Of a DNA stretch of 31,159 bases, positions 1,213-30,600 are shown piece by piece. The DNA is from an uncultured virus (IMG/VR IMGVR_UViG_3300033550_000001) (Duplodnaviria; Heunggongvirae; Uroviricota; Caudoviricetes). The notes below the pieces were generated by a model. It had not been told where the DNA came from and searched no databases. It saw only the letters and a program-made list of their open reading frames with translations. The stretch is taken from IMG/VR virus record IMGVR_UViG_3300033550_000001; one strand, written 5' to 3'. Position numbers and translations under genes: made by a program. The stretch's first letter is position 1. Each line of letters starts with the position of its first letter.

Positions 1213-1252
1213 ATGACTTAATTAAACCATGAAGCCCCGGGGCGGACAACCC
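1213..1252 (-). promoter_or_regulatory. cassette promoter (TTGTCC-17-TTTAAT) overlapped by palindromic operator 1213-1230
   Basis: ATGACTTAATTAAACCAT; the -35 lies in the GCCCCGGGG hairpin 1234-1258. Confidence 0.7.
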
Positions 1253-4920: not shown

Positions 4921-5367
4921 TTCCTCGTTTCCTTGGTCGCAGGGAAGCCCCGGGCCCGACGGCCCGGGGCGGGTGGGTCACGGCGCCGGGAGCGGCCAGC
5001 CGCCCATGCCGGTACGGCGGTTGCTGTCGGGGCTGTCGACGTCGCGCGGCCGGTTGTCCTCCACGATCCGGCGCATCCACTCGGGCATCTCCATCACGGG
5101 CGGGAAGTGCTCCGCCGCGTTGTGGAACTCCACAGTGATGTCCACGCGGGAGACGTCCTGGCGGATGCCGTACTGGATGCGCAGGCCGTACGCCTTCCGA
5201 CGGCCTCCGGTGAATGTCTTGACGACCGGCCGGTCCGGCAGGTTCACGCGGACCTCGTGGCTGATCTCCCGGACGACTGCCGTCACGTCGGTGGTCTGGC
5301 TCATCGGTTCCTCGTTTCCTTGGTCGCAGGGAAGCCCCGGGCCGTCGGACCCGGGGCGGGCGGATCA
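4921..5367. repeat. 60-bp near-identical direct repeats (4921-4980, 5308-5367) flanking one gene
   Basis: First 36 bp identical: TTCCTCGTTTCCTTGGTCGCAGGGAAGCCCCGGGCC. Confidence 0.9.
4978..5304 (-). CDS. hypothetical protein
   Basis: 108 aa; start motif upstream. Confidence 0.75.
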   Translation of the reverse strand: MSQTTDVTAVVREISHEVRVNLPDRPVVKTFTGGRRKAYGLRIQYGIRQDVSRVDITVEFHNAAEHFPPVMEMPEWMRRIVEDNRPRDVDSPDSNRRTGMGGWPLPAP

Positions 5368-5726: not shown

Positions 5727-5767
5727 ATGACTTAATTAAACCATCACTCGGCCGGTTGGACAACCCC
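5727..5767 (-). promoter_or_regulatory. cassette promoter (TTGTCC-17-TTTAAT) with operator 5727-5744, overlapping the epimerase 3' end
   Basis: ATGACTTAATTAAACCAT; the -35 lies in codons GVVQ. Confidence 0.7.
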
Positions 5768-11288: not shown

Positions 11289-13292
11289 TCATCCCGCAGC
11301 GGCGGCCTCCGCGAACACGTTCCCCGTGATCTCGTAGACGGCCCGGGTGTTGGGCGGCGTGAGCCGGCGCAGCACGCCGTCGTCGGCCAGCCGCTCCAGC
11401 TCGTCGTACACCCACCCGCGCGACCGGCCGACCAGCCCCGGGATGTCCTCCAGGGCCTGGAACGTGACCTCGTGGTCCTCGCCGGACGCGAGGATGTTGA
11501 TGCGGTTCAGCAGCTCCGCCCGCGCGTCCTCGGTGGTCATCCGGCCCTCGTCCACGATGGGGTCGGCGAAGGTGAGGGACAGCCCGTCGGGGGCGGCCAG
11601 CGGCTCCCCCGTGTCGATTCCGTCGCTGGTCAGAGACATGTCCCGCACCTCCGTGAAGTCGTCGTCCACCGTGCTCTCCGCGACCGCCTGCGCGGCCGGG
11701 GACACCCGCTCGGGCTGCTCGTCGGCGATGCCCCGGGCGAGGATGCGGTACGTCCCCTCGTCCAGCTCCGCCCAGAACTGCCGCGAGGACTCCCGGGCCT
11801 CCTGCGTGTCCTTGGCGGTGCGCCTCGGCGCCCGGCCGTCGATGGGCCAGTGGGCCCGGTCCGTGCCCACGACCTCGGCATACAGGCTGCCGGGGCTGTC
11901 GTTGCGCCACTTCGTCGGGTCGGCGCCCGCCTCCAGCGTGTCCCGGTGCAGGGAGTACTTGGCGTCCTGGTCCTCGTTCTGGCCGTGGGCGACGGACTGC
12001 ACGAGGGCCGCCCGGGTCTTCCGGCTGATGTTGTCGTGCGGCATGGTCTGCATGGACAGGCAGATGTGGACACCGATGGACCGCAGCTTGCGCAGCAGCT
12101 CGTCCAGCTCCTCGTCCATCTCCACGGCGATGTCCGCCGCCTCCTCGATGTCCACGAACACCAGCGGGATGCGGTGCAGCGTCCACATCTCCGAGACCCA
12201 CTGCTTGTAGCCGACGCCGCCGTCTGCCCTGGTCAGCGAGGCGAACAGGCCCGACCGGTACCCGATGACCCGCTTGAGGTTGACGACCAGGGTCTTCACC
12301 TCGTCCTCGTCCTTGGCGGCCAGTCCCAGCATGTCCTCGACGTCGCCGAAAGACTGCTCGAACTTGGCCGGGTCGCCCACGATCGGCACGACGTCGATGC
12401 GTTCGCGCATCTGGAGGATCGCCGTGACCATCGTCTCCGTCTTGCCCGACCCGGAGACGCCTGTCCACTTCGTGTGCGCCAGCGGCCGGTCCGCCTCCGG
12501 GTCGCCGCACAGCCACCACTCGATGTCCGAGCCGTTGGTGCGCCCGCCCAGCCAGATGGGTGCGTCGGCGACGGACATCCCCCGGTGGTCCGGGCGGTTC
12601 GCCCAGGTCACGGGCTTGCTGGAACCCTGCTCACGGGTGAACGTGACGTCCACCTGCGACTCGTCGCCCTTGACCCGGAGCACCTTGACCTGGTCGGCGC
12701 CGACGCCGGCGACAGCCGCGATCTGCTCCCGGGCGTCCTGCGCCTCCTTCGCCGTGGTCGGCGCGTCCAGGTGGACCCGGGCGCGCAGCTCGTCGGCCGA
12801 CTCCTGCACCTTGCCGACCTTGGCGTCCTTGAACGCCCTGACCTTGGCCAGCAGGCCGTCGTTTCCGCTGGTCTGCTGCGACTTGTCGGTCTCCCGCACG
12901 CCGGACAGGGCCGCGTGGCGCACGCACCACGCGGCCGACAGCACGAGGCCGCCGAGCGCCCACGCGCGGAGGATGTCCTCCTGCCAGGGCCTGATCGCCA
13001 CGGCGAAAAGAGACCAGGTCAGGACGGCCGTGGCGAAGACCATGACCATGGTCCGGGTCTCCCGACGGCGCACTGCCCAGTTGGTCCAGGTCGCGTACGC
13101 CAGGTACCCGAAGCTGAGGGCGAGGAAGGCCGTCCACAGCTCGCTGTGACCGCTGGTGGCGATGACGATGTGGAGTACGAGGGACAGCGGCCAGACGGCC
13201 GCCACGACGGCCCACGGCAGGACGTACGAGACGATCCGCTCGGGCACGTTGAACAGGGCGTATCCCCGCACGCGGGGGGTGTGCTTGCTCAT
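11289..13292 (-). CDS. traB: TraB-like FtsK/SpoIIIE-family conjugative DNA translocase
   Basis: N-terminal TM helices, Walker A GVSGSGKT, Walker B VFVDIEEAA, LRSIGV..SMQ, C-terminal winged helix; start set at MSKH. Confidence 0.85.
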   Translation of the reverse strand: MSKHTPRVRGYALFNVPERIVSYVLPWAVVAAVWPLSLVLHIVIATSGHSELWTAFLALSFGYLAYATWTNWAVRRRETRTMVMVFATAVLTWSLFAVAIRPWQEDILRAWALGGLVLSAAWCVRHAALSGVRETDKSQQTSGNDGLLAKVRAFKDAKVGKVQESADELRARVHLDAPTTAKEAQDAREQIAAVAGVGADQVKVLRVKGDESQVDVTFTREQGSSKPVTWANRPDHRGMSVADAPIWLGGRTNGSDIEWWLCGDPEADRPLAHTKWTGVSGSGKTETMVTAILQMRERIDVVPIVGDPAKFEQSFGDVEDMLGLAAKDEDEVKTLVVNLKRVIGYRSGLFASLTRADGGVGYKQWVSEMWTLHRIPLVFVDIEEAADIAVEMDEELDELLRKLRSIGVHICLSMQTMPHDNISRKTRAALVQSVAHGQNEDQDAKYSLHRDTLEAGADPTKWRNDSPGSLYAEVVGTDRAHWPIDGRAPRRTAKDTQEARESSRQFWAELDEGTYRILARGIADEQPERVSPAAQAVAESTVDDDFTEVRDMSLTSDGIDTGEPLAAPDGLSLTFADPIVDEGRMTTEDARAELLNRINILASGEDHEVTFQALEDIPGLVGRSRGWVYDELERLADDGVLRRLTPPNTRAVYEITGNVFAEAAAAG

Positions 13293-13920: not shown

Positions 13921-13953
13921 AAGCCCTACCAGGGTCATCCCCGGTAGGGCTTT
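13921..13953 (-). terminator. hairpin terminator with overlapping degenerate operator (13947-13964)
   Basis: AAGCCCTACC...GGTAGGGCTT. Confidence 0.6.
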
Positions 13954-13975
13954 ACCTAAATCAAGCGTCTCGCGG

Positions 13976-18927: not shown

Positions 18928-19533
18928 TCAGCCGCCGAACGGGTCCGCCGGCTCGTCGCCCCCGCCGCTGACGGCGGTGGCGGAGTGCACCGGCACGTCC
19001 CGCTCCGCGTGGGGGTTCTGCGCGGCCGGGGTGTACCGGGCGCTGAACGACTGGCTGGCGAACTTGGCGCCGGGCGCCTTGACGCTCTTGCCCCGGGCCA
19101 TCTCCAGGTACCCACCGACCTCGGGGAGCTGCATGCCCGCCTTCTTCAGCGCGTCGGCGAGCGCCTTGATCTTGGTGTTGGAGACGTAGAGGGTGCGCTT
19201 GCCGTCATCCTCGGGCAGCGCCACCTCCTCGTAGTCCTTGCCCTCCCAGGTGACGCCGGTGGCCTCGCACTGCATTTCGATGACCATCATCTCGACGGGC
19301 CGGGCCGACTCCACCGGGATGGTGAGCTGGGACTGGATGGTGGGCCGCTTGCCCTGCCAGAACAGCAGCTCGCGGGTCTCGTTGTCGGTCTGCTGCGCCA
19401 TCCGCCAGTCCAGGATGGTGCCGGCGACGACGTGGCCGACCTTCGGGAACTTGGCTCCGATCTTCTTGTCGCCCGAGAGGAACCGGGCGGCCTTCACGGC
19501 GTCCGCGCTGAACGGGTCCGTCGAGGTGGTCAT
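18928..19533 (-). CDS. putative single-stranded DNA-binding protein (phage type)
   Basis: AKFPKVGHVVAGTI...QQTD; beta-rich core; acidic DEPADPFGG tail; downstream of exonuclease. Confidence 0.55.
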   Translation of the reverse strand: MTTSTDPFSADAVKAARFLSGDKKIGAKFPKVGHVVAGTILDWRMAQQTDNETRELLFWQGKRPTIQSQLTIPVESARPVEMMVIEMQCEATGVTWEGKDYEEVALPEDDGKRTLYVSNTKIKALADALKKAGMQLPEVGGYLEMARGKSVKAPGAKFASQSFSARYTPAAQNPHAERDVPVHSATAVSGGGDEPADPFGG

Positions 19534-19623
19534 GTGTTTCTCCTGTGTCTGTGGGCCTGTTGGTCCCTGGGTTTCCTCGTCCCGCCGTCGGCGGGGGAGG
19601 GGAGCCGGTGGTGCGTGGCTCCG

Positions 19624-19717
19624 GTGCGCGGCCGGGTCTCGAACCCGAATCTCCAGGGACTTACCGGCACGGGGTGACCGGGGTCCTTGGGGCTCTAGCC
19701 AGTTGAGCTACCGCGCT
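19624..19717 (-). ncRNA. tRNA-like RNA with expanded anticodon arm (no readable anticodon)
   Basis: GCGCGG-TA-GCTC AACTGGCTA GAGC ... AGAT TCGGG TTCGAGA CCCGG CCGCGC: canonical acceptor, D and T arms. Confidence 0.75.
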
Positions 19718-19939
19718 GCCAGCGTTTTACGGCCGCCGCCAGACCACCCACCGACCGCCGGTGTGAGCGTTTCGCCCTCGGGCTACTTGCTGCACGACGG
19801 TGCGGCTTAGGTCTCTCAGGGCCCCGAGGCCGGGGGATGTGGCCCCGGGGCGGTCTCTGTGGAGTTGATCCGGGAGGGTCTGTGACGATTGGTGAACTAC
19901 GTCTGACGCGCCCGGAGTTGGTGTGCTCCGTATGCTTTT

Positions 19940-19972
19940 ATGATACCCCGTCGGAGGATTTAGTTAAACCCT
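19940..19972 (-). promoter_or_regulatory. promoter TTTAAC-17-TATCAT with operator over the -35 (19955-19972)
   Basis: AGGATTTAGTTAAACCCT. Confidence 0.65.
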
Positions 19973-19974
19973 CT

Positions 19975-22863
19975 TCACCCACCGGGTTCCGCGAGTTCCC
20001 GGAGCCTCGTCTGCATGACGTCGACCAGCGCGTCCACCTCCGCCTTGGACAGGCCGGCCTTCGTCGCCTCCTGCCAGACGGCCGACGCCTCACCCTTGGA
20101 CGTGACCGCCTTGGCCCGCTCGCGCAGGGTCGGCGGCCGGACCGTCGTCCGGGACGTCACGCCGGTGTCCGGGTCGTAGTCCCCGGCCACCGGAGCCGAC
20201 TTCACCGTTTGCGCGGCCGGCCGCGACGGGGCGAACGTGCCCGCCTCGGAGACCATGACCGGGGAGGCGAGGTTGCGCAGCTTGCGCCACTCCCGCACCC
20301 GCTCACACAGCACGGCCGCGTTCCAGCCCGACTCCAGGTCGATGCCGTAGACGGCCGGCTGCTTCGTCCCCGACTTGTCCACCGGCAGGTGGATGACGAT
20401 GCCCGCGTCCAGCCGGACCTTCGTGCCCGGCTTGTCGAACCGGCTCAGCGGGTCCGGCTCCCACGTCTCCTCGTGCCGGTCCCACACCCCGGCCGTGTTG
20501 ATGCCCTGCGCGTACGTCCCGAGCTGGATGGCGATCTCCTGCCACCCGTAGTCGAGATCCCGGCCGGTCTTCTTGTCGCCGATCACGTACTCCCCGGGGG
20601 ACAGACGCACCTCCGCCCGGCCGATCCCCAGCACCAGCGGCTTGGTGACCTTGTAGCAGTTGTCCGAGGTCCCGGCGACGCCGTACTGCTTGACGACCGT
20701 GGTGAACTCGATGAGGTGCGGCACGGGCTCCAGGCCCGTCTCCTCCAGCAGCCGGATGTACGTCTCCACGTCGTCCCGGCAGTCCGGCGGCACCTGCTCC
20801 AGGATGCTGCGCGGCCCGCCCGGCGAGTGCCACGCCCGGTCAGCCATCTCCGTGAACGAGTGCATGGACGTGCCGAGGTTGGCGGCGACCTTGTCACCGG
20901 CGGCCGTCTTCAGCTCCGCCGTCAGCTCGTCCAGCAGTTTCTTGTCCGCGCGCACGTGCTTGCCGTGGGCGCGCTGCACGATGTCCGGCCGCATCGTCGC
21001 CCCGAGCAGCGCCATACGCAGACCCCACTGGGACAGGGCGTACGTGTCGCTGATGGACTTGGCGAACGTCGTCGCCCTCGTCCACGCCTGCTCCCGGCCG
21101 GTGTCCGGGTGCGGGATGAGGTACCGGCCGTACCGGTCGCGCTTGGTCTCCTTCTCCCCGTGCGTCCCGGACCCGCCGGCGAGGAACTGCGCCGCCGACG
21201 CGTTCCGGTCCTGCGCGGGAGCCGGGGCCGGGGCCGGCCGGCCGCCGAGGAACCGCGCCGCCGCGTCCGCCTGGTCAGTCGTCACCGCAGCACTCCTGCC
21301 CCTGCCAGCCGTCGTCGCCGTCGGCGCGGATGATGTCACCGATCCGGATTGCGGCGAAACAGCCGGAACACTCGCCCTCGTAGGCGGCGGGGAACCAGGG
21401 GCCGGGGCCGTCGTCGGGCTGGTCGTTGTCGGCGTCGATGCCGCCGAGGAAGCGGGCCGCTGCTGCGGCGTCCTGTCGTCCGTGCATTCCGTGGTCTCCT
21501 GTTCCGTGGTCCGGGGAGCGGGGGCCCGCTCCACCGTCTCGCCGAGGTTGGTCAGATTGCCGGTGCGGCCGTCGTGCGGGCCGCCGATGACGATGGCGTG
21601 GATGACGCCGTTGGTCTCGCCGGTGACGCGCATGAGCGAACCGCGCCGGGTGAAGTGGTCGCCGGTTTCCAGAAGGCCGAGGAGCACCGGGCCGGTAGCT
21701 GCTCGGACGGCCGCCACATCGCGGCGCACCTGGCCCATCACGTCCCGAGGGTCCAGGTCGGGGCTGGTCGCCTCGTCGTTCCCGGAGTCCACGGCGCCGC
21801 AAAGCCTGCACCGGAAAACCAGTTCTTCCCCGTCGTCCTCCGCCGGGTCGTTTTCGGTGAACCCGTCCGGGTGCGTGCACGGCGTACCGCAGGCGACGCA
21901 CACCAGCCGGTCGTCCTCCACGCCGAACACCCCGTCGGCGTGGTCGCACGGACGGCCGTCCTCGGTCTCGCCCTGCGGCAGCCGGCTCTCAGGCGGGGTG
22001 AACCAGCCCACGGCGTCGCAGTGCTCGCAGGCGGGGACCTCCCGGCCGTCCACGCTGAGCGTGTCTCGGAATCCGTCCGGGTGTGTGCACGCCGCCTGCC
22101 GCGCGGCCTTCTCCGCGTCCACCCGCGCGGTGCACTCCGCACAGGCGACGACGCCGTGGGGCACGTTGGTGCCGCAGCCGGGGCACCGGTGGTCGTCGGT
22201 GTTGCACTTACCGCACGCCGGGTCGAACCCCTCCGGGCTCGGGCGGCCCTCGGTGAGCAAGGCGGACACCCTTGCCCTGAGCAGAGGGCCACCCGTGGGC
22301 GCGCCCATGAACCGCTCGGCTTCGGTCCGGGTGCCGTCGTCCATCGCGTCCAGGACGGTTCCGACGCCGGACGTCTCCCGGGTCAGGGCCTCCGCCAGCG
22401 GCGAGCCGTTGAACTGGTCGGCCATCGTCGGGATCGGCACACCGGCGCAGATGTAGCACTGGCCAACCGGGACGTGCCCGCAGTCGACAGCCAGCGACGC
22501 GACGAGACCGTCCGTCGTGCCGACGATGTCCGGGTACGTGCCGAGCGGGAAGTCACTCCCGGCGGGGCACGGCCGGGGCGTCGCTTCCGGGGTGAGATGG
22601 CTGCGCACCCGGCCGTTGTCGGTGAGCTGCACCGGGTGCCTGCACAGGCGGCACTGTGGGCTGTCGGCGGTCATGTCCTCGGCGAGCGCGACACCGGCCG
22701 GCGTGGCGGGCTTCTCCCCGGCGCCCTTGCACTTGCGGCTGTCCGGGTTGGCCTGCCAGTCGGGGTTGTTGGCGGTGTGGTGGCGGACCGTGCCGTCCGC
22801 GTTGACGCTGCACTCCTTGCCGCACACGGCGCACGGTGCGCGCTCAGGGGTCGACTGAGTCAT
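19975..22863 (-). CDS. multi-Zn-finger protein in frame with a C-terminal PD-(D/E)XK (Cas4/RecE-like) exonuclease; exonuclease may also start internally at 21285
   Basis: Many CxxC and CxHxDG repeats; RDRYGRY, TRATT, GTSMH, AGTSD, IGDKKTG, QLGTYA. Confidence 0.8.
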   Translation of the reverse strand: MTQSTPERAPCAVCGKECSVNADGTVRHHTANNPDWQANPDSRKCKGAGEKPATPAGVALAEDMTADSPQCRLCRHPVQLTDNGRVRSHLTPEATPRPCPAGSDFPLGTYPDIVGTTDGLVASLAVDCGHVPVGQCYICAGVPIPTMADQFNGSPLAEALTRETSGVGTVLDAMDDGTRTEAERFMGAPTGGPLLRARVSALLTEGRPSPEGFDPACGKCNTDDHRCPGCGTNVPHGVVACAECTARVDAEKAARQAACTHPDGFRDTLSVDGREVPACEHCDAVGWFTPPESRLPQGETEDGRPCDHADGVFGVEDDRLVCVACGTPCTHPDGFTENDPAEDDGEELVFRCRLCGAVDSGNDEATSPDLDPRDVMGQVRRDVAAVRAATGPVLLGLLETGDHFTRRGSLMRVTGETNGVIHAIVIGGPHDGRTGNLTNLGETVERAPAPRTTEQETTECTDDRTPQQRPASSAASTPTTTSPTTAPAPGSPPPTRASVPAVSPQSGSVTSSAPTATTAGRGRSAAVTTDQADAAARFLGGRPAPAPAPAQDRNASAAQFLAGGSGTHGEKETKRDRYGRYLIPHPDTGREQAWTRATTFAKSISDTYALSQWGLRMALLGATMRPDIVQRAHGKHVRADKKLLDELTAELKTAAGDKVAANLGTSMHSFTEMADRAWHSPGGPRSILEQVPPDCRDDVETYIRLLEETGLEPVPHLIEFTTVVKQYGVAGTSDNCYKVTKPLVLGIGRAEVRLSPGEYVIGDKKTGRDLDYGWQEIAIQLGTYAQGINTAGVWDRHEETWEPDPLSRFDKPGTKVRLDAGIVIHLPVDKSGTKQPAVYGIDLESGWNAAVLCERVREWRKLRNLASPVMVSEAGTFAPSRPAAQTVKSAPVAGDYDPDTGVTSRTTVRPPTLRERAKAVTSKGEASAVWQEATKAGLSKAEVDALVDVMQTRLRELAEPGG
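21275..21487 (-). CDS. nested out-of-frame Zn-ribbon-like protein (70 aa)
   Basis: GGAG RBS; GC-rich third positions; WFPAAYEGECSGCFAAIRIGDIIRADGDDGWQGQECC. Confidence 0.6.
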   Translation of the reverse strand: MHGRQDAAAAARFLGGIDADNDQPDDGPGPWFPAAYEGECSGCFAAIRIGDIIRADGDDGWQGQECCGDD

Positions 22864-23422: not shown

Positions 23423-23455
23423 TCCGTAGTCCCCGTTCCTGTAGATTTAGCTAAA

Positions 23456-26113
23456 TCATACCTGACGGTCGCGCTGCATGTAAGGGTCCAGCTTGCGGGA
23501 GGCGAGGGTGACCGCGAACAGGTCGCTGGCGAGGCCGGCCCGGATCTCCTCGGGCACGGTGTGCCCGGCGTAGCGGAGCATTCCGATCAACTTCGGAGAC
23601 GCCGGCTTCTTCCTCCACGCCGCCGTCCGGGTCATGTTGAGCGCGGACCGATCGGTGGCCTCGGTCTCCGCCCACGCCATGGCGATGCCGAGGTCCAGGC
23701 CCTCGTGCAGCCGCTCCCAGTTCCCGCTCGGCGGGGCGTAAGCGACGTCCCACTTCTCGGCGCCCTCGCGGGACGGCCACAGCAGGATCTCCCCGTTGTC
23801 GCCGAGCGGGATGAACTGGATTCCCGCTCGGGTGCGCAGCCACGAGTAGGCGGCCGACGCCTTGAACAGGTCGATGTCCCGGTGGGTCAGCGCGAACCGC
23901 AGCGAGCCGGCCGGAACGCGGGCGTCCTTGCTGGACTCCTCGCGCTCGTACGCCTCGGCCAGAGTCTCGCCGTCGGCCACCTCCCGGAGCTGCGCGCCCG
24001 GCTCCAGGTCGACCAGCGTGCACAGCGACCCGCCCTCGCCGGCGAGGATGAGCACCAGGGCGTCCTCCTTGCCGGTGGCCGGCGACGGCCGCAGCACCCG
24101 CCCCACCATCTGTATGAACAGCGGCTCGGACTTGGTCGGCCGGGCGATGACCGCGCAGTCTGCGAACGGGAAGTCGGCACCCTCGGTCAGCACCATGCAG
24201 TTGACCAATGTGCGGATCTCGCCGGTGCGGAACTTGCGGTAGATGTTCAGCCGCTCCTCGCGGGGCGTGCCGCCGTGCACGTACGCCGCGCTCGGCAGGG
24301 CCTCGGCCGTCTCCCGCGCGACCTCCACCGTCGGCGTGAACACGATGGGGGACCGGCGGTCGGCCGCGTGCTCCTCCAGCACCTTGGCGATGATCTGCGG
24401 GCCGCCCGCCTCCATCAGCGCGTCGCCCAGGGACGAGGCGGTGTAGTCGCCCCGGCTCCGCTTGACGTCCCCGAGGTGCAGGGTGTCCACGTCGATGAGC
24501 CGGGAGCGCACATCGGTGAGGTAGCCCCGGCTCATCGCCCACAGCGGGGAGCGCGTGTAGACGGCGTCCTCCCACACGTCCCCGAGACCCTGGCCGTCGC
24601 CCCGGGCGAGTGTCGCGGTGAAGCCGACGGCCTTGGTGCCGGGCATCCCGCTGTAGCAGCCGAGGGCGGCGAGGATGTTGCGGTAGCTGACGGCCGCCGC
24701 GTGATGGCATTCGTCAACAATGACCAGCCCGACCTTGCCGCACTTCTCCTGGCTGTCGAGCAGCCGGTGCAGCCGCTTCTCCCGAGCGAGGGTCTGCACC
24801 GAGCAGACCATGACGTCTGCGGCGATGTTGTCGTCCGCCGCCTTCACCTTGCCGGTGAACAGGGACGGCTCGGTCTGCTTCAGCTTGGACAGCGTCTGGT
24901 CGGCCAGCTCGTCGCGGTGCACGAGGATGACGACGCGCGTGCCCTCCGACTCGACGTGCTCGGCCGCCATGCGGGAGAACACGACAGTGTTGTGCGTGAC
25001 GATGTGGTGCCTCGTCACCTGGTACAGGCTGTCCGGCGCGGCCACCCGGATGCACCGGATCTCCTGGTCCTCCACTCGCTCCACGGCCACGATGGTGCGC
25101 CGGGGTTCGAACGTCCGGCGCGGTCCGCCGGCGCGGTTCTTCCTCGGGGTGGACAGAGCGGGTGCGTCAGAGGGCATGAGGATGTTGACCACTATGTTCT
25201 CGTAGTCCTCGCCGCTGGTCGGCTGAACCCGGTTGTAGCACCGCACGCTCGCGGTACCCCCGAGAGAGCAGACCAGTTCGCTCACGTCGTCCGCCAGTCG
25301 CGGCGAGGTGGTGTGGTAGCAGACCGCCCGGCGTTCTGCCCGACTGGAGCCGTCGTTGTCCATGAGGCCGTGCAGCAGGGCAAGTCGCTGCGCCGTCCCG
25401 GCCTCCAGGTACCGGCGCGGGATGAACTTGTCCGCGCTGGCCACGTCCAGACCCATCACACGGATGTGCTTCTGAACCCCTCGGACGATGAAGCGGGGGC
25501 ACCACTTCGTCTCGTCCACGGTCGCCCGGGTCACCTCGTGCTCCGCACGGACGCGTTCGGCCACGTGTTCGTCGGGCGTGGTCAGGACCGGGCTGGTGTG
25601 GCTCAGGTAGCCGTTGGCGAGCAGCGCCCCGAGCGTGTACGGGCCGATAGGGAGTTCCGCGTCGGGTGTGAGAGTGCCTGACACCGGGATGGCCCACCGG
25701 TTGGCCCGCCCGTGCTTCAATCCGTGGTCCGCTATCTCCGACGTGCTGAGCGTGCGAACCTCCCGGGACGTACGCCGGTGCGCGTGGTCCCGCACGGTCC
25801 ACAGGTGTTCCGCGTCCGTGACGACGGACGACCCGTCCCGGAAGGTCACACGGAACGCGGGCAGGACGCCACGGTCGTAGACGTCCACGACCTCGGTCGG
25901 GTGACCGTTGCTGCCGAACACGAGGTCCCCGGGCTCCAGGTCACCCCACTTGCGCAGACCGTCCGGGGTGGGAACTTCGGTGTTCAGTGGATGGCCTTTG
26001 CCCATGCCGGTCGCCAGCACGGCGGCCGGCCGCTGCATCCCGTCGGCCCACGCGGCGCGCACCGTGTCGATGCACTCGCGCTGGTACTCGCGCAGGGCCA
26101 GAGTCTGGCTCAT
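23456..26113 (-). CDS. SF2 (DExH) DNA helicase with intein
   Basis: LREYQ Q-motif, ATGMGK/T, IVDECHH, FTAT, LTEGAD, QMVGRVLR; start set at MSQT. Confidence 0.93.
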   Translation of the reverse strand: MSQTLALREYQRECIDTVRAAWADGMQRPAAVLATGMGKGHPLNTEVPTPDGLRKWGDLEPGDLVFGSNGHPTEVVDVYDRGVLPAFRVTFRDGSSVVTDAEHLWTVRDHAHRRTSREVRTLSTSEIADHGLKHGRANRWAIPVSGTLTPDAELPIGPYTLGALLANGYLSHTSPVLTTPDEHVAERVRAEHEVTRATVDETKWCPRFIVRGVQKHIRVMGLDVASADKFIPRRYLEAGTAQRLALLHGLMDNDGSSRAERRAVCYHTTSPRLADDVSELVCSLGGTASVRCYNRVQPTSGEDYENIVVNILMPSDAPALSTPRKNRAGGPRRTFEPRRTIVAVERVEDQEIRCIRVAAPDSLYQVTRHHIVTHNTVVFSRMAAEHVESEGTRVVILVHRDELADQTLSKLKQTEPSLFTGKVKAADDNIAADVMVCSVQTLAREKRLHRLLDSQEKCGKVGLVIVDECHHAAAVSYRNILAALGCYSGMPGTKAVGFTATLARGDGQGLGDVWEDAVYTRSPLWAMSRGYLTDVRSRLIDVDTLHLGDVKRSRGDYTASSLGDALMEAGGPQIIAKVLEEHAADRRSPIVFTPTVEVARETAEALPSAAYVHGGTPREERLNIYRKFRTGEIRTLVNCMVLTEGADFPFADCAVIARPTKSEPLFIQMVGRVLRPSPATGKEDALVLILAGEGGSLCTLVDLEPGAQLREVADGETLAEAYEREESSKDARVPAGSLRFALTHRDIDLFKASAAYSWLRTRAGIQFIPLGDNGEILLWPSREGAEKWDVAYAPPSGNWERLHEGLDLGIAMAWAETEATDRSALNMTRTAAWRKKPASPKLIGMLRYAGHTVPEEIRAGLASDLFAVTLASRKLDPYMQRDRQV
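24989..25996 (-). mobile_element. intein (336 aa) with LAGLIDADG domain in helicase Walker A
   Basis: GK|GHPLNTEVPTPDG ... IVTHN|T; LGALLANG and LHGLMDNDG. Confidence 0.9.
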
Positions 26114-26358
26114 CGGTCCCCCTCGTCGTTCCCGTCCAGCGCCCGCTCCAGCGCGCCGTAGCCCGGCCCCCGGCGCAGCCCGAGCAGCCGGTAAATTTCC
26201 GTGGCGTGCAGCATCCCGGACCGGGGGTCCGACGGAACCGGGTACGCCTCTTCCTTGCCGCACTGCTCCAACAGCCGGTCCACCACGCGGCGCAGGTCCG
26301 TCTCGGACAGGGCCAGCGCCCGGGCCCGCAGCTCGTGGTTGTAGTCCTCCGCACTCAT
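26110..26358 (-). CDS. hypothetical protein
   Basis: MSAEDYNHEL...; ATGA overlaps at both ends. Confidence 0.7.
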   Translation of the reverse strand: MSAEDYNHELRARALALSETDLRRVVDRLLEQCGKEEAYPVPSDPRSGMLHATEIYRLLGLRRGPGYGALERALDGNDEGDR

Positions 26359-26663
26359 GCGGCCTTCGTCCCCTCGTACTCCGCCACGGCGCGGTCCCAC
26401 GCGATGCGGGCCGGCTCGTCGGCGAACCGGGGGTCGGCACCGTGACGCGCGATCAGGTGCTCCCACAGGTCGGCGAAGTGCTCGCCGTCCCCGAGGCCGT
26501 CGCAGCGCACCGTCCACCAGCAGCTCGGGCAGTCGGCGTGCGGGCCGGTGGAGTGGGCCGCCGCGCGGCGCAGGCGCCCGAGGTAGTCCACCAGTTCCAC
26601 GTCGTCCACGTCGGAGCCGAACAGGTTGAGCGCCGCCCCGTAGGCGGTCTGTTCCGTGGTCAT
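26355..26663 (-). CDS. hypothetical protein with C2H2-like residues
   Basis: GGGAGG RBS; CPSC..C...H....H. Confidence 0.65.
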   Translation of the reverse strand: MTTEQTAYGAALNLFGSDVDDVELVDYLGRLRRAAAHSTGPHADCPSCWWTVRCDGLGDGEHFADLWEHLIARHGADPRFADEPARIAWDRAVAEYEGTKAA

Positions 26664-27074: not shown

Positions 27075-27550
27075 TGGCGCCGCCGGTCATCAAGGCGATA
27101 GAGACCGAGGCGTTCGGCTGCAAGTTCCGCTCCCGCACCGAGGCCCGGTTCGCCACGTTCTGCGACGCGGCCGGCGTCCCGTGGGAGTACGAGCCCGAGG
27201 GCTACAGGCTGGCCAGCGGCTGGTACCTGCCGGACTTCCGCATCCGGCCCGAATGGGCCCCTGACCAGGTGTGGGTGGAGATTAAGCCGCCCAGCGATAC
27301 ATTCGACGATCCACGCTGGGCGGAGCTGGCCGAGGGGAGCGGGCTGATCGTCCTCGTGCTGCGTGGCCTGCACCGGCGGGGCGACACCTGCGGGCGCGAC
27401 CACATGGTGCGCTTCTGGCACCCGGAGGGCGTCGTGGCAGACGTCCCCCGGATGTGGACCGGACAGCGGTTCGCACCGGCGTGGGACGCCGCCTCGGCGG
27501 CCCGGTTCGACCGCCGCGCGCCCGCCGGCCGGAAGGGGAGGAGAACGTAA
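27074..27550 (+). CDS. PD-(D/E)XK endonuclease
   Basis: FRSRTEARFA, WEYEPEG, YLPDF, VEIKP; TGATG coupling. Confidence 0.8.
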   Translation: MAPPVIKAIETEAFGCKFRSRTEARFATFCDAAGVPWEYEPEGYRLASGWYLPDFRIRPEWAPDQVWVEIKPPSDTFDDPRWAELAEGSGLIVLVLRGLHRRGDTCGRDHMVRFWHPEGVVADVPRMWTGQRFAPAWDAASAARFDRRAPAGRKGRRT

Positions 27551-27606
27551 GTGCCCACGCCCCAGCAGACCAAGGAAGCACGGACCAAGGAATCGAGGAA
27601 CCACCG

Positions 27607-30600
27607 ATGACCACGTACGTGGACACGAACGCGGGGCAGGTGTCGGACCACCACCTGGCGGAGCTGGACGCCAGCGAGATCGCCCCGGAGCACCGCGAGG
27701 CACGCGGGTACGAGACGCTGTACGGCACCGACGAGGACCGCGCGAGGCTGCGCGAGGAGTCCATCCCGGTGTGGGCCTGGCGCGAGGACACGGCCTTCCC
27801 CGGACTGTTCATCCCGATGTACCGGGTGACCGGCGAGCGGATCGGCGCGCAGTTCAAGCCCGGCCAGCCGCAGCCGAACAGCAACGGCAGCGAGAGCAAG
27901 CCGGTGAAATACGCCACCCCCAAGGGCACCAAGCCGCGCCTGGACGTCCCGCCGCTCATGGCGACAGCCGTCCGCGCCGGGGCCGCCCCGTTGTGGATCA
28001 CTGAGGGTGTGAAGAAGGCCGACTCGCTCGCCTCCAAGGGCCTCGCGGCCATCGCGCTCTCGGGCGTCTACAACTGGCGCAGCCGGCTGGGCACGCTCGG
28101 CGACTGGGAGGACATCCCGCTCAAGGGCCGGGTCGTGGTGATCTGTTTCGACTCCGACGCCCGGCACAACTCCAACGTGCTGAACGCGATGCGCCGGCTC
28201 GGCATGTGGCTGGAGTCCAAGGGCGCCGCCGACATCCGGTACCTGATCGTTCCGCAAGAGGTCGACGGGACCGCCGTCAAGGGCGTGGACGACTACTTCC
28301 ACGCGGGCGGCACGCTGGAGGGCCTGCGGGACGCGGCCACCTCCGAGATGCCTTCGGACAACAACCGCGACGCCGCGTTCAGTGACGCGGTCCTCGCCGA
28401 CACGGTGTGCTCCGACGTCCTGGAGGGCCATTACCGGTGGGCCGCCGGTCTCGGGTGGATGCGCTGGGACGGCAAGGTGTGGACCGAGTGCACCGACGCC
28501 ACGGTGATGGAGGAGATCCGACTGTGGGCCCTGGCCGGCTTCCAGCGGGTGCTGGAGAAGTGGCGCGCGGAGCCGAACAAGGACTTCCGTACCGAGCAGG
28601 AGGGGTGGCGCGGGGCCCTCGCCGCGTCCAAGCTGGGCAACCTGCTCAAGCTGTCCAGGGGCATCCTGGAGTCGGCCGCGACGGACTTCGACTACGACCC
28701 TGACGCGCTCAACTGCCAGAACGGCATCCTGGACCTGAAGACCGGCGTCCTCACCCCGCACGACCCGGACCGGCTGATGACGAAGATCACCGGCTGCGAC
28801 TACGTCCCCGCGACGTTCCACCCGGACTGGAAGCAGGCGCTGGAGGCGGTACCGGCGGCCGTGCTGGACTGGTTCCAGATGCGCATGGGCCAGTCCATCA
28901 CCGGCCACACCCCGCCGGACGACCTGATCCTGATCCTCCAGGGCGGCGGGTCCAACGGGAAGGCGCTGGACACCGACACGCCGATGCTCACCGCCAACCG
29001 TGGCTGGACAACCATGGGCGACCTCGTGGCCGGTGACGAGGTGTACGGCCCGGACGGGCAGCCCACAAAGGTCACGCACGCGTTCGACGTCCTGCACGGA
29101 CGCCGCTGCTACCGGGTGACCACGACCGACGGACGGTCCGTCGTGGCTGACGCGGACCACCTGTGGACCGTCCGGCTGAGCAAGGGGACGAGCAAGCTCA
29201 ACAGGCCACGGTGGGTCACGCTGACCACCGAACAGATGGTCCAGCGGGGCGTCTACGCCCGTACGGGAGGGGGCCGCGCGGGGCTTCGGTTCCGGCTGCC
29301 CGAACAGCAGCCGATCCAGTCCAAGCCAGTTGATCTGCCGTTTGACCCCTACGTGCTCGGTGCCTGGCTGGGGGACGGGGAGAGCGCGGGTAACCGCCTC
29401 ACCTGCCACCCCGACGACGTTCAGATCGTCGAGGAGATCCGGGCAGCCGGCATCCCGGTGCGAAGGCAGAACACCCCGTACGCGTGGGCTCTCGGGGACG
29501 GGGGCGGTCGTGGCAAGCGCAACGGCCAGTCCATCACCGAACAGCTCCGGTCCCTGGGCGTGCTGAACAACAAGCACATCCCGGAGCAGTACCTGGCCGG
29601 GTCCCAGGAGCAGCGCCTGGCGCTGCTTCAGGGACTCATGGACACCGACGGCTTCGCGTCTGCGGGGCAGGGTCAGGCCGTGTTCACGTCCACCCGCAAG
29701 TGTCTGGCAGACGGGGTGCTGTACCTGGCGCGGTCGCTGGGGTGGAAGGCGACGGTAAAGGAGTCCGTGGCGACCCTGAAAGGCGTTGCCGTCGGTCCGA
29801 AGTGGATGGTCACGTGGACGCCGGGTCCTGATGGGTTGAACCCCTTCCGGCTGGCCCGCAAGGCCGGCCGCATCAGCGCCTCCCGCCCGCGCGTGCGCAC
29901 CTCGGCGCCGAGCATCGCGGCCATCGAGAGGGTGGACTCCAGGCCGGTGCGCTGCATCACTGTGGACCGCGAGGACGCCCTGTACCTCGCCGGCCGGGAC
30001 CTGGTCCCCACGCACAACTCTACCGTCATGGACGCCATCGCCAAGTCGGCCGGCAAGCGCGGCGGCTACCACACGGCTGTCGCCGACCGGGCGCTGCTCG
30101 GCAACGCGAGCGACAACCACCCCACCGAGATGATGGACTTCATGGGCGCTCGCCTCGCGGTGCTGGAGGAGACACCGGAGGCCAAGCGCCTGGACGTCAA
30201 CCGGGCGAAAAAGTTGGCGGGCACCGACCAGATCACGGCCCGCAAGATGCGGCAGGACAGCGTCACCTTCTCCACGACGCACACGCTGATCATCAACACG
30301 AACCACAAGCCGCTGGTGGAGGAGTCCGATCACGGCACGTGGCGCCGGCTGGCCATGCTCGTCTTCCCGTACAAGTACTGCAAGCCGTGGGAGGCGTGCA
30401 CGGGGCCCAACGACCGGCCGGGGGACCTGAACCTGCGCCAGCGGGTGAAGACCGACGAGCGGGTCACTGAGGCCGTCCTGGCGTGGCTGGTGGACGGGGC
30501 CCGCAAGTGGTACGCGGCCGACATGATCCTGCCCCCGCCGCCGGCGGAAGTGGCGGAGGCCACCCTGGAGTGGCGCCGGGAGTCGGACCTGGTGCTGTCC

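What the first reader, a model, noticed from the sequence alone, without database searches (positions are those of the whole stretch)
19624..19717. tRNA mimic whose anticodon loop is replaced by an extra hairpin
Seen (minus strand): 6-bp acceptor stem GCGCGG/CCGCGC, U8A9, D arm GCTC-AACTGGCTA-GAGC, T arm TCGGG-TTCGAGA-CCCGG. The anticodon stem is extended (CCAAGGAC/GTCCCTGG) and encloses 22 nt forming another hairpin (CCGG.CAC-CCC-GTG-CCGG). There is no 7-nt loop and no encoded CCA. Inference: an intact elbow with a non-decoding arm suggests a decoy for tRNA-targeting defences, an RNase P processing signal for the ssb transcript, or a protein scaffold.
Basis: partly seen in the sequence, partly recalled or inferred. 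Interest (0 to 1): 0.75.

Follow-up and report, generated by a model that had tools for sequence, protein, structure and literature searches.

The report
Anticodon-less tRNA look-alike in phage leader
A family of ~95-kb Streptomyces phages keeps a tRNA-shaped RNA whose codon-reading arm is replaced by a long sealed hairpin with a C-rich tip, sitting in the untranslated leader of a replication-module gene, so it is a selected tRNA mimic that cannot decode; its job is still unproven.

Summary
Window 19717..19624 (minus strand) folds as a cloverleaf with a complete tRNA body. It has a 39-nt arm in place of the 17-nt anticodon stem-loop, and no CCA.

Default ARAGORN and Rfam do not call it a tRNA. 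It is not decay. I found 12 distinct copies: 9 uncultured viral contigs and the window, plus three Streptomyces assemblies, one of whose contigs is also an IMG/VR record. All 12 lie upstream of the same gene.
- 92% of pair cells are standard pairs.
- 12 of 30 pairs show compensatory changes (0 of 500 shuffles reach this).
- The body is 93% identical between phages. The neighbouring gene is 71% identical and the arm 49%.
- Three features never change: an unpaired 1:72 (C·A or A·A), C73, and a run of at least 3 C at the arm tip.

The element lies about 215 nt downstream of a conserved sigma-70-like promoter and 90 nt upstream of a 201-aa gene. That gene is weakly OB-fold-like; "ssb" is not proven.

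Best reading: host RNase P and RNase Z recognise it, cut the leader from the mRNA and release a stable non-decoding tRNA look-alike. Decoy and riboregulator roles remain open. No RNA data exist.

The closest known RNAs are the T5 "tRNA-like stable RNAs". This scan has noted similar phage look-alikes on other DNA.

The parts
19624..19717 (-). tRNA-shaped module, positions 1-73: A1 (unpaired with A72), 6-bp acceptor stem, U8 A9, D arm, long arm, variable loop AGAU, T arm, A72, C73
   Evidence: Sequence; MFE fold; covariance model R1 scores it 102.6 bits; pair counts
19653..19690 (-). Arm that replaces the anticodon stem-loop: 8-bp stem with one A.C, a 1x3 internal loop (C / UAA), a 4-bp CCGG/CCGG helix, a bulged U, a 3-bp CAC/GUG helix and a CCC tip
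   Evidence: In homologues the arm is 27-42 nt, its stems covary, and its tip always holds >=3 C
19692..19708 (-). D arm GCUC-AACUGGCUA-GAGC, with G18 G19 and A21
   Evidence: The stem is the same in all 12 once a one-column misalignment is allowed for. Two homologues carry extra hairpins only inside the D loop
19632..19648 (-). T arm UCGGG-UUCGAGA-CCCGG
   Evidence: The 49:65 pair is U.G, C-G or A-U in homologues
19719..19745 (-). Nearly invariant 27-nt box just 5' of the module (GGUCUGGCGGCGGCCGUAAAACGCUGG). It holds a small predicted hairpin CGGCG-GCCGUAAAA-CGCUG
   Evidence: Alignments; RNAalifold
19744..19760 (-). G-rich leader box (..GGUCGGUGGGUGG..) that is complementary to the C-rich tip region of the arm
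   Evidence: In this window only 5 contiguous Watson-Crick pairs form (CACCC:GGGUG). Two homologues have 8. This is a lead, not shown
19601..19622 (-). Conserved hairpin GGAGCC-N10-GGCUCC starting 2 nt after C73; the stem is the same in 11 of 12 and the loop varies
19581..19595 (-). Second small hairpin CCCGCC-GAC-GGCGGG in the leader
   Evidence: some both-sided changes among homologues
19940..19967 (-). Sigma-70-like promoter TTAACT-16 nt-TATCAT, directly after the stop codon of the upstream exonuclease gene. It overlaps an operator-like motif at 19957-19971
   Evidence: Promoter scan: 1 site found, 0.1 expected. The -35 hexamer TTAACT/TTAATT is kept in all 10 copies whose fetched stretch reaches it and that were examined, TATCAT in 10 of 11 and TACCAT in L053. 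L058 has no such promoter, and the L015 stretch begins inside the -35 hexamer. Motif repeats
18928..19533 (-). Downstream gene, 201 aa, PHROG 1911 (unknown function). Beta-rich model, weakly OB-like, with a conserved C-terminal ..DPFGG
19975..22863 (-). Upstream gene, 962 aa, with a Cas4/RecB-like exonuclease domain in its C-terminal part
   Evidence: PHROG 466, E 8.5e-62; relatives in annotated phage records are named exonuclease or Cas4 family exonuclease

Best explanation
The element is a selected, non-decoding tRNA-shaped RNA module of a family of ~95-kb Streptomyces phages.

Proposed mechanism:
1. It is transcribed as part of the ~400-nt leader of the 201-aa gene, from the conserved promoter at 19967..19940.
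2. It keeps the whole tRNA body: acceptor/T-arm stack, D/T-loop elbow and the usual tertiary-contact nucleotides. The host's tRNA end-processing enzymes can therefore recognise it. RNase P would cut 5' of position 1 (19717). RNase Z would cut after C73 (19624). The CCA-adding enzyme would then finish the 3' end.
3. This would detach the first ~215 nt of the leader. The mRNA would then start 2 nt before a conserved hairpin. A stable RNA of about 95-100 nt would be released.
4. The long, sealed arm keeps this RNA out of decoding.
5. The invariant C-rich tip marks a second functional site that is not yet explained.

Shown: the fold, its selection, its position in the leader and the invariant features. 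Inferred: the transcript, both cleavages, CCA addition and the consequences for the mRNA.
For: The fold is real and selected.
- There are 12 distinct copies. All 12 lie upstream of the same gene, shown for 11 by alignment or coordinates and for L058 by the protein match.
- 92.0% of cells are paired, and 12 of 30 pairs changed on both sides; 0 of 500 shuffles reach this.
- Across 28 pairs of 8 phages, the body is 92.6% identical, the downstream CDS 71.0% and the arm 48.6%.

The body keeps tRNA-specific positions (and the alignments): U8, A9 with U12-A23, A14, G18 G19, A21, A15/U48 and the T loop UUCGAxx.

Insertions in two homologues fall only inside the D loop.

The arm always folds but varies from 27 to 42 nt. 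It is never a 5-bp stem with a 7-nt loop carrying U33.

Leader context: a conserved promoter lies about 215 nt upstream, a conserved hairpin lies 2 nt after C73, and the leader holds no credible small ORF.

Lack of an encoded CCA is normal for this host. Only 12 of 58 distinct ARAGORN tRNA calls in one Streptomyces assembly that holds the phage end in CCA.

The same phages carry two further odd tRNA-shaped elements, each 40-50 nt upstream of a start codon. The one complete genome has no canonical tRNA gene.
Against: There is no RNA evidence of any kind. No transcript, 5' or 3' end, or CCA addition has been seen.

Processing alone does not explain why the arm tip keeps >=3 C in 12 of 12 copies while the rest of the arm changes freely. 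It also does not explain why 1:72 is always unpaired.

One homologue (L058) lacks the long leader and the promoter yet keeps the module. The module is therefore not tied to this leader architecture.

Ordinary phage tRNA genes also sit between genes, so position alone is weak evidence.

The promoter is a consensus match only.
Confidence: 0.45

Rival explanations
1. Trans-acting decoy. The released look-alike soaks up a host tRNA-directed defence or toxin that recognises the tRNA body or acceptor end. Having no anticodon loop, it is immune to anticodon nucleases and cannot disturb translation.
For: The whole tRNA body is under stronger constraint than the neighbouring gene, while the arm evolves fast, as expected for a mimic of shape. 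These phages carry three tRNA-shaped genes and no canonical one. Phage tRNAs that counter tRNA-cleaving defences are documented (PMC10264068, PMC11464382, PMC11555353; abstracts in the search listing only). tRNA cleavage occurs in Streptomyces (PMC2241913; abstract in the listing only).
Against: Nothing in the sequence points to a particular defence system. The known cases use decoding tRNAs with altered anticodon loops, not sealed arms. A conserved C-rich tip is not needed for a body decoy.
Confidence: 0.2
2. tRNA-scaffolded riboregulator. The C-rich tip is a seed that pairs with a G-rich sequence. The target may be in cis (the G-box 25-35 nt upstream in its own leader, forming a pseudoknot that gates processing or translation) or in trans on mRNAs, as the C-rich loops of actinobacterial 6C sRNA do.
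For: The tip holds >=3 C in 12 of 12 copies although arm identity is only 48.6%. The two copies with the most diverged tips are each complementary over 8 contiguous Watson-Crick pairs to their own leader G-box: G002 CCCCGAGC:GCUCGGGG (16 of 1000 shuffles) and L044 CCCGAUCC:GGAUCGGG (6 of 1000). Summed over 11 copies the score is 63 against 51.3 +/- 3.4, and 4 of 2000 shuffles reach it. In L056 a G-to-A change in the box is mirrored by C-to-U in the arm. 6C sRNA acts through C-rich loops (PMC6486639; title and abstract in the listing).
Against: In 9 of 11 copies the longest match is 5-6 pairs, which composition alone gives. Duplex energies with the phage's own leader are barely better than with other leaders, -21.4 against -19.9 kcal/mol. 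The copies are related, so the shuffle count is not a probability. L058 has no such leader. There is no Rfam 6C match.
Confidence: 0.15
3. A real decoding tRNA whose insert is removed, that is, an intron-containing tRNA.
For: The 3-nt bulge / 4-bp helix / bulge layout of the arm loosely recalls an archaeal bulge-helix-bulge site (my reading).
Against: The forced calls disagree between copies: Leu(AAG) here and Leu(CAG) with a 30-nt 'intron' in G002. L044 has a plain 9-bp stem with an 8-nt loop and nothing to remove. The 5' bulge is 1-2 nt, not 3. The product I derive would lack U33 and a purine at 37. Bacterial tRNA introns are group I introns of hundreds of nt (recalled). No splicing endonuclease or RNA ligase family was found in the complete relative at E<=1e-5; 110 of 113 ORFs were scanned.
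Confidence: 0.03
4. A decaying tRNA pseudogene or a chance fold with no function.
For: Default ARAGORN and Rfam do not call it. There is a mismatch at 1:72 and an A.C in the arm.
Against: There are 12 copies with compensatory changes in 12 of 30 pairs and a body more conserved than the adjacent protein gene. The 1:72 mismatch is itself conserved: C.A in 10 and A.A in 2.
Confidence: 0.02
5. A structural part of a replication or protein-binding site. One version is an origin transcript whose RNase P cut makes a primer 3' end. Another is a scaffold bound by the neighbouring OB-like protein, which would regulate its own mRNA.
For: The element lies in the replication/recombination module between exonuclease, helicase, primase and a RuvC-like gene. 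The lowest G+C of the region (50-55%) lies at the promoter. The downstream protein gives weak OB-fold matches.
Against: No test bears on it. The OB matches are at noise level. Nothing requires a tRNA shape for either role.
Confidence: 0.08

Closest known systems
Phage T5 RNA1 and RNA2 ('tRNA-like stable RNA with unknown functions', NC_005859 30501-30644 and 32959-33083)
   Same: Both are phage-encoded stable-RNA genes annotated as tRNA-like. In an MFE fold, RNA2 shows an acceptor stem, a D arm, a T arm with GGUUCGAAUCC, and a long branched arm where the anticodon arm should be. Their function is unknown.
   Different: No sequence relationship was tested or is evident. The T5 RNAs sit inside a cluster of 20-odd ordinary tRNA genes in a coliphage. 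This element sits alone in an mRNA leader of an actinophage that has no ordinary tRNA genes. The T5 RNAs are longer (125-144 nt).
t-elements of plant mitochondria, and mascRNA at the MALAT1 3' end
   Same: Both are tRNA-like folds next to mRNAs or long RNAs that RNase P and RNase Z use to make transcript ends (t-elements: PMC1920247, abstract in the listing; mascRNA: recalled). The anticodon part is not needed. This is the closest match for how the element may work.
   Different: They belong to a different domain of life and share no homology. Here the complete elbow and all tertiary positions are kept and a C-rich tip is conserved, which is more than a processing signal needs. Cleavage has not been shown here.
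Canonical bacterial or phage tRNA (Rfam RF00005)
   Same: Acceptor stem, U8, D arm with G18 G19, 4-nt variable loop, and a T arm with UUCGAxx.
   Different: There is no 5-bp stem with a 7-nt loop, no U33 and no anticodon. Position 1:72 is always unpaired. No RF00005 match was found on any of the copies searched with it: the window, its near-identical record G001, and 7 others. No host tRNA is clearly ancestral; the best body match is tRNA-Lys(CUU) at 31 of 58.
Actinobacterial 6C sRNA (C-rich loops)
   Same: A hairpin tip made of a C run in a high-G+C Gram-positive setting. 6C pairs with targets through such loops (PMC6486639; title and abstract in the listing).
   Different: There is one C-rich tip, not two, it is carried on a tRNA body, and there is no Rfam 6C match. 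No target is shown.
RNase P-matured phage regulatory RNAs (P1/P7 C4, P4 CI) and the engineered 'tRNA scaffold' for RNA expression
   Different: Those are enterobacterial or man-made. No relation of sequence exists and there is no evidence of antisense function here.

Membership tests
Canonical tRNA (Rfam RF00005 / ARAGORN) | Scores above the family's gathering score or is called by a default tRNA finder | tested here: not met
   ARAGORN default: 0 genes in the window. Rfam gathering: 0. No RF00005 match at E<=10 on the window stretch or on 7 homologous loci. An RF00005 search of G001 and G002 found only the other element, B.
Canonical tRNA (Rfam RF00005 / ARAGORN) | 5-bp anticodon stem with a 7-nt loop, U33 and an anticodon | tested here: not met
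   The arm is 27-42 nt in 12 of 12 copies. Tips are 3- to 8-nt C-rich loops. The one 7-nt tip (L058, ACCCCAA) has C, not U, at the second position.
Canonical tRNA (Rfam RF00005 / ARAGORN) | Acceptor stem, D arm with G18 G19, and T arm with UUCRANY, able to form the L-shape | tested here: met
   Sequence. Helices 1, 2 and 6 are 100%, 83% (an alignment slip) and 100% paired. 1:72 is unpaired in all 12.
Intron-containing tRNA (archaeal bulge-helix-bulge or bacterial group I) | An insert at or near 37/38 with two 3-nt bulges around a 4-bp helix, or a group I intron; removal gives a normal anticodon loop | tested here: not met
   The ARAGORN -i calls differ between copies and use positions 33/34 or 42. 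The 5' bulge is 1-2 nt. L044 has no insert-like hairpin. The insert is 21-22 nt. No endonuclease or ligase family was found in 110 scanned ORFs of G002 at E<=1e-5.
tmRNA | tRNA-Ala-like ends with G3.U70, plus a tag reading frame | tested here: not met
   ARAGORN -m finds none. Rfam finds none. 3:70 is C-G.
Phage tRNA-like stable RNAs (T5 RNA1/RNA2 type) | A phage-encoded, discrete, stable RNA with a tRNA-like body and a non-canonical anticodon region | tested here: inconclusive
   The body and the non-canonical arm are met, and the T5 annotation and fold were checked. That a discrete stable RNA is made could not be tested.
t-element / mascRNA-type processing signal | Cleaved by RNase P at its 5' side and RNase Z at its 3' side, setting the ends of a neighbouring RNA | not testable with these tools
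   Only the anatomy fits: a leader position, no CCA after C73, and a conserved hairpin 2 nt downstream.
6C sRNA (Rfam) | Two hairpins with conserved C-rich loops; matches the Rfam model | tested here: not met
   No Rfam match at gathering score or at E<=10. There is a single C-rich tip.
Y RNA / YrlA | Ro-binding helix formed by the 5' and 3' ends, a tRNA-like domain inside, and a Ro (TROVE) protein nearby | tested here: not met
   No Rfam match. Here the 5' and 3' ends form the acceptor stem. No TROVE family was found in 110 scanned ORFs of G002.
   No Pfam family even at E<=10 except a chance-level PHAT match. PHROG 1911 is 'unknown function'. The model has pLDDT 78. Foldseek gives nothing at E<=0.001. 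The best VIA-align Z is 5.5; the list is rich in OB folds (RPA, SSB 1kaw at Z 4.1) but lies below the tool's stated noise level.

The most novel reading that the evidence does not exclude
The module is the core of a self-contained leader switch. The C-rich tip of the long arm acts as a pseudo-anticodon that pairs with a G-rich 'specifier' box 25-35 nt upstream in the same leader. A tRNA-shaped domain and its reader would then be joined in one RNA. The pseudoknot would decide whether host RNase P and RNase Z can excise the module, and so whether the replication-module gene's mRNA is matured and translated. The same phages would use three such tRNA-shaped punctuation marks in place of any decoding tRNA.
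Probability: 0.15. Interest if true: 0.8.

Novelty: new variant of a known kind. Interest (0 to 1): 0.55.

Why it matters
Phage tRNA look-alikes have been known since the T4 and T5 stable RNAs, yet none has an established function.

This case is unusually clean for three reasons.
- A dozen diverged copies give direct evolutionary proof that the tRNA body, a sealed arm, an unpaired 1:72 and a C-rich tip are all selected.
- The RNA sits at a defined place in an mRNA leader with a conserved promoter.
- The hosts, Streptomyces, are culturable, and three public Streptomyces assemblies hold the phage.

The old question of what non-decoding phage tRNA mimics do therefore becomes testable with ordinary genetics: mRNA punctuation by RNase P/Z, decoy, or riboregulator. 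The case would also extend this class of RNA to actinophages.

Tried and rejected
Steps that led nowhere:
- Rfam at gathering and permissive thresholds gave only chance-level matches: Scr3202, HOXB13-AS1_2, Mu-gpT-DE, hya and RcsR1, all E > 0.2.
- DNA search of 50,697 phage records with 1.4 kb around the element gave no match.
- Two metagenome-contig pattern scans gave 0 matches.
- A looser T-arm pattern in viral contigs brought in 4 unrelated phage tRNA-Glu genes. I dropped them after reading them.
- Of the 19 loci from the genome-contig scan, I kept the 3 Streptomyces ones. I read 7 of the others, all ordinary tRNAs of other organisms; the other 9 I dropped unread, on match length and source organism.
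- A covariance-model search of 151 Streptomyces genomes found the element only in the genome already known to hold the phage. The two other matches are tRNA-sized genes.
- Public runs: no RNA holder is listed. The four runs laid are contigs only and show no ends.

Ideas considered and rejected or left open:
- A leader-trailer helix enclosing the module was predicted from 8 sequences. It did not hold with 12.
- A promoter reading of the CGUAAAACG box was considered and dropped. It has no -35 element and no final T in the hexamer (my reading).
- Ancestry from a host tRNA: no clear donor among 58 distinct tRNA calls of one host. tRNA-Gly, suggested by the CCC tip, scores 17-28 of 58.
- Aminoacylation identity, from recalled rules: no G3.U70 (Ala), no long variable arm (Ser, Leu), and no G-1 opposite C73 (His). 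Position -1 is C, U or A in 11 copies; in L058 it is G, which I did not examine further.
- Integration-site (attP) reading: the element is a full tRNA shape inside a replication-module leader. Two of the three assemblies hold the phage on contigs of about phage size (92.7 and 92.2 kb; the third is 53.7 kb), which looks unintegrated. This was not pursued further.
- A small leader ORF: only 22-46-aa GTG ORFs that overlap the RNA.
- Loop-leader duplex energies do not separate a phage's own leader from foreign leaders well.
Full report
**What is there**

On the minus strand, 19717..19624 reads as follows.
- Position 1 is A.
- GCGCGG, then U8 A9.
- D arm GCUC-AACUGGCUA-GAGC, then C.
- 8-bp stem CCAAGGAC/GUCCCUGG with one A.C. 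It encloses C, CCGG, U, CAC, CCC, GUG, CCGG, UAA.
- Variable loop AGAU.
- T arm UCGGG-UUCGAGA-CCCGG.
- CCGCGC, A72, C73, then CGG.

Two details are added: the A.C in the stem, and an unpaired A1/A72.

The minimum-energy fold is this cloverleaf, at -44.7 kcal/mol with z -2.86; 1 of 200 shuffles folds as well.

Standard finders do not call it.
- ARAGORN default finds 0 genes in the window.
- Rfam finds 0 at gathering score.
- No tRNA match appears at E<=10 on the local 551 nt.
- With introns allowed, ARAGORN forces 'tRNA-Leu(AAG)' with a 21-nt intron at 33/34.

**Setting**

The window is 71% G+C. Codon-position G+C shows that nearly all genes lie on the minus strand. It is a phage replication and recombination module.
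- Primase/polymerase with an intein.
- Helicase with an intein.
- A 962-aa protein with a Cas4/RecB-like exonuclease domain (19975-22863).
- A 441-nt gap that holds the element.
- A 201-aa gene (19533..18928; PHROG 1911, unknown function).
- A convergent RuvC-like gene.

No isolated phage is close. A DNA search gave no match. The best protein match of the exonuclease in 750 phage records is 35% identical over a third of its length.

**Relatives**

Pattern scans, a protein-anchored scan and a covariance model gave 12 distinct copies.
- The window, which is identical over the element to the partial virus record G001.
- Nine uncultured viral contigs of 30-99 kb.
- Three Streptomyces genome assemblies. 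Two hold the element on contigs of about 92 kb, near the 95.7-kb size of the one complete relative, which has direct terminal repeats. One of these contigs is also an IMG/VR record.

So the host is Streptomyces. All 12 copies lie upstream of the same 201-aa gene, which is 40-86% identical in protein in the loci.

Three searches limit how wide the family is.
- The two metagenome scans found nothing.
- In 151 sampled Streptomyces genomes the model found the element only in the assembly already known to hold the phage.
- A 31%-identical protein relative on a 122-kb contig has no such element.

**Selection**

These counts were made on the model-fitted alignment of the 12 copies, which leans towards the structure.
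- 92.0% of 336 pair cells are standard pairs. Shuffles give 82.8 +/- 0.9, and 0 of 500 reach the observed value.
- 12 of 30 pairs changed on both sides. Shuffles give 4.3.
- With partners slid by 1-3 columns, only 28-46% pair.

Compensatory changes occur in every main helix.
- Acceptor stem: 3 pairs, all from L058.
- The two halves of the proximal arm stem: 6 pairs.
- The inner hairpin: 2 pairs.
- T stem: 1 pair, where 49:65 is U.G, C-G or A-U.
- The 'unpaired' D-stem cells come from a one-column misalignment of 4 rows (visible).

Each copy folds into the cloverleaf on its own.

Among 8 phages (28 pairs) the body is 92.6% identical, the first 570 nt of the downstream gene 71.0%, and the arm 48.6%.

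**What is invariant and what is free**

Invariant or nearly so:
- The acceptor stem, U8 A9, the D stem, G18 G19, A21, the variable loop AGA(U/C), and the T arm.
- A72 and C73 in 12 of 12.
- Position 1 is C in 10 copies and A in 2, so it never pairs with A72.

Free: the arm.
- Its length runs from 27 nt (L044: a perfect 9-bp stem GUUGGACUG/CAGUCCAAC with the 8-nt loop UCCCGAUC) to 42 nt.
- Most copies have an 8-bp stem, a 1x3 internal loop and an inner hairpin.
- No copy has a 5-bp stem with a 7-nt loop carrying U33.
- Yet the tip holds at least three consecutive C in all 12.

Two copies carry an extra hairpin (19 and 22 nt), both inside the D loop but at different places. These are the regions where tRNAs tolerate length variation (established knowledge). 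This again points to a preserved L-shape.

**Leader**

- Right after the exonuclease stop codon lies TTAACT-16 nt-TATCAT (19967..19940). It is the only promoter-like site in 700 nt; 0.1 are expected by chance.
- The -35 hexamer is TTAACT or TTAATT in all 10 copies whose fetched stretch reaches it and that were examined. The L015 stretch begins inside the hexamer.
- The -10 hexamer is TATCAT in 10 of 11 copies and TACCAT in L053. L058 has no such promoter.
- It overlaps a motif, TTTAAnTAAATC, palindromic in some copies. The motif occurs at 5 intergenic places in the window, giving 6 matches against 0.03 expected, and 15 times in the complete relative.

The module thus starts about 215 nt into a leader and ends 90 nt before the start codon.

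- The 27 nt before it are almost invariant and hold a small predicted hairpin.
- Two nt after C73 starts a hairpin, GGAGCC-N10-GGCUCC. Its stem is the same in 11 of 12 copies while its loop varies.
- The leader has no credible small ORF.

**Other tRNA-shaped genes of these phages**

*Element B* lies outside the window, at G001 5101-5196.
- It scores 43.4 bits with RF00005.
- It is 96 nt, has an encoded ACCA and also a long arm. Its 14-nt loop CCUUGGUCGGUUCC is identical in 5 genomes.

*Element C* is 71 nt.
- It scores 45.5 bits in one Streptomyces assembly.
- ARAGORN calls it Gly(CCC) in one phage and Glu(CUC) in another.
- It has C at position 33 and an odd T loop.

B lies 38 nt and C about 45 nt upstream of a start codon.

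The complete relative has no canonical tRNA. RF00005 gives 0 matches, and ARAGORN's 2 calls are B and C.

Among 110 of its 113 ORFs, Pfam at E<=1e-5 found no RNA ligase, CCA-adding enzyme, splicing endonuclease or Ro protein. It did find ParA, a tyrosine recombinase and a RapZ-C-like protein.

**Mechanism**

What is shown:
- A selected tRNA body with a sealed arm.
- A fixed place in a conserved leader.
- No CCA in a host where only 12 of 58 distinct tRNA calls end in CCA.

What I infer from the known substrate rules of RNase P, RNase Z and the CCA-adding enzyme, which read the acceptor/T stack and the elbow and ignore the anticodon arm:
1. The host excises the module.
2. This removes the first ~215 nt of the leader.
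3. The mRNA is left beginning just before a protective hairpin.
4. A stable look-alike that cannot decode is released.

This works like plant-mitochondrial t-elements (PMC1920247, abstract only) or mascRNA (recalled). I give it 0.45. Processing alone does not explain the invariant C-rich tip or the always-open 1:72, L058 keeps the module without the leader, and no RNA data exist.

**The tip**

The leader has a G-rich box 25-35 nt upstream of position 1, and it comes in five sequence types.
- The two copies whose tips diverged most match their own box over 8 contiguous Watson-Crick pairs. For G002, 16 of 1000 shuffles do as well; for L044, 6 of 1000.
- In L056 a G-to-A change in the box is mirrored by C-to-U in the arm.
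- The sum over 11 copies is 63 against 51.3 +/- 3.4, and 4 of 2000 shuffles reach it.
- Against this, 9 of 11 copies have only 5-6 pairs, which composition alone gives.
- Duplex energies are -21.4 kcal/mol with a phage's own leader against -19.9 with other leaders.
- The copies are not independent.

I keep this as a lead and as the boldest reading. C-rich loops as pairing seeds are known for actinobacterial 6C sRNA (PMC6486639, title and abstract only).

**Downstream protein**

- No Pfam family.
- 27 homologues, all unnamed or 'hypothetical'.
- The model has pLDDT 78 and is beta-rich.
- Foldseek gives nothing at E<=0.001.
- VIA-align's best Z is 5.5. Its list is rich in OB folds, but it lies below the tool's stated noise level.

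'ssb' is therefore possible, helped by the conserved C-terminal ..DPFGG, but not shown.

**Comparison and novelty**

The closest known objects are T5 RNA1 and RNA2, annotated 'tRNA-like stable RNA with unknown functions'. RNA2 folds with a long arm in the anticodon position.

Earlier notes of this scan describe similar sealed-arm look-alikes in other, unrelated phages. They are unchecked AI notes and I used them only as leads.

Full-text searches for 'tRNA-like' with 'actinobacteriophage' or 'Streptomyces phage' returned 3 and 6 papers. I read matching passages of one (PMC10732093; there the term occurs only in a reference title). By title and abstract start, none of the others describes such an RNA.

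I class it as a new variant of a known but unexplained kind. It is the first well-supported actinophage case. It is leader-embedded, has an invariant C-rich tip and an open 1:72, and occurs in phages that carry three tRNA-shaped genes and no ordinary tRNA.

Noticed in passing
Outside the window: G001 C1:5101-5196 (-), = L004 1501-1596 (-). Copies at L032, L033, L034 and L035: A second tRNA-shaped RNA ('element B', 96 nt). It scores 43.4 bits with RF00005, has an encoded ACCA, and its D stem covaries (GCAC/GUGC against GCUC/GAGC). It has a long arm whose 14-nt loop CCUUGGUCGGUUCC is identical in 5 genomes. It lies between two same-strand genes, 38 nt before a start codon. Its loop GUCGGU is complementary to ACCGAC repeats in the conserved trailer (my reading; not tested).
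   Followed up: partly
G002 C1:13522-13592 (L046); G004 C551:74921-74991 (L120 222-293): A third, 71-72-nt tRNA-shaped gene ('element C'). It scores 45.5 bits with RF00005 in G004. ARAGORN calls it Gly(CCC) in one phage and Glu(CUC) in the other. It has C at position 33, T loop AUCGUGA and a 3-bp D stem. It lies about 45 nt before a start codon. It is doubtful as a decoder.
   Followed up: partly
window 1215-1229, 5729-5743, 13948-13962, 19957-19971, 23443-23458: An AT-rich motif TTTAAnTAAATC, a perfect palindrome GATTTAGCTAAATC at 23443-23458, recurs in intergenic gaps: 6 matches against 0.03 expected. It occurs 15 times in the complete relative G002. It is likely an operator or promoter element of the phage.
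   Followed up: partly
window 23456-26440 (-) and 27286-31158 (+); G002 51119-53152: Intein-type insertions (LAGLIDADG, homing endonuclease and Hint domains) interrupt the helicase and the primase/polymerase in the window, and the large terminase in the relative G002.
   Followed up: no
L015, L018 and L028 (Streptomyces assemblies); G002 11356-12150 and 45425-46510: The phage appears in three Streptomyces assemblies, on contigs of 92.7, 92.2 and 53.7 kb. The complete relative encodes a ParA-type ATPase and a tyrosine recombinase. This suggests a plasmid-like (unintegrated) prophage or carrier state.
   Followed up: no
L039 1501-1568 (G154 C2:371478-371548): In an unrelated Streptomyces genome, a cluster of tRNA-Ala(AGC), an odd tRNA-like gene and tRNA-Arg(ACG). 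The odd gene has a normal body, but its anticodon arm is a 4-bp stem with a UGCG tetraloop. It is another anticodon-less look-alike.
   Followed up: no
G002 88742-89119 (L050 8742-9119): A 125-aa protein matches the RapZ C-terminal (RNA-binding adaptor) domain, PF22740, E 8.6e-9. No Pfam match to this family was found among the window ORFs scanned.
   Followed up: no
window 19975-22863 (-): The exonuclease domain fills only residues ~550-934 of the 962-aa protein. Except for a short match at residues 7-38 (PHROG 6601, unknown function), the first ~550 residues match no family searched.
   Followed up: no
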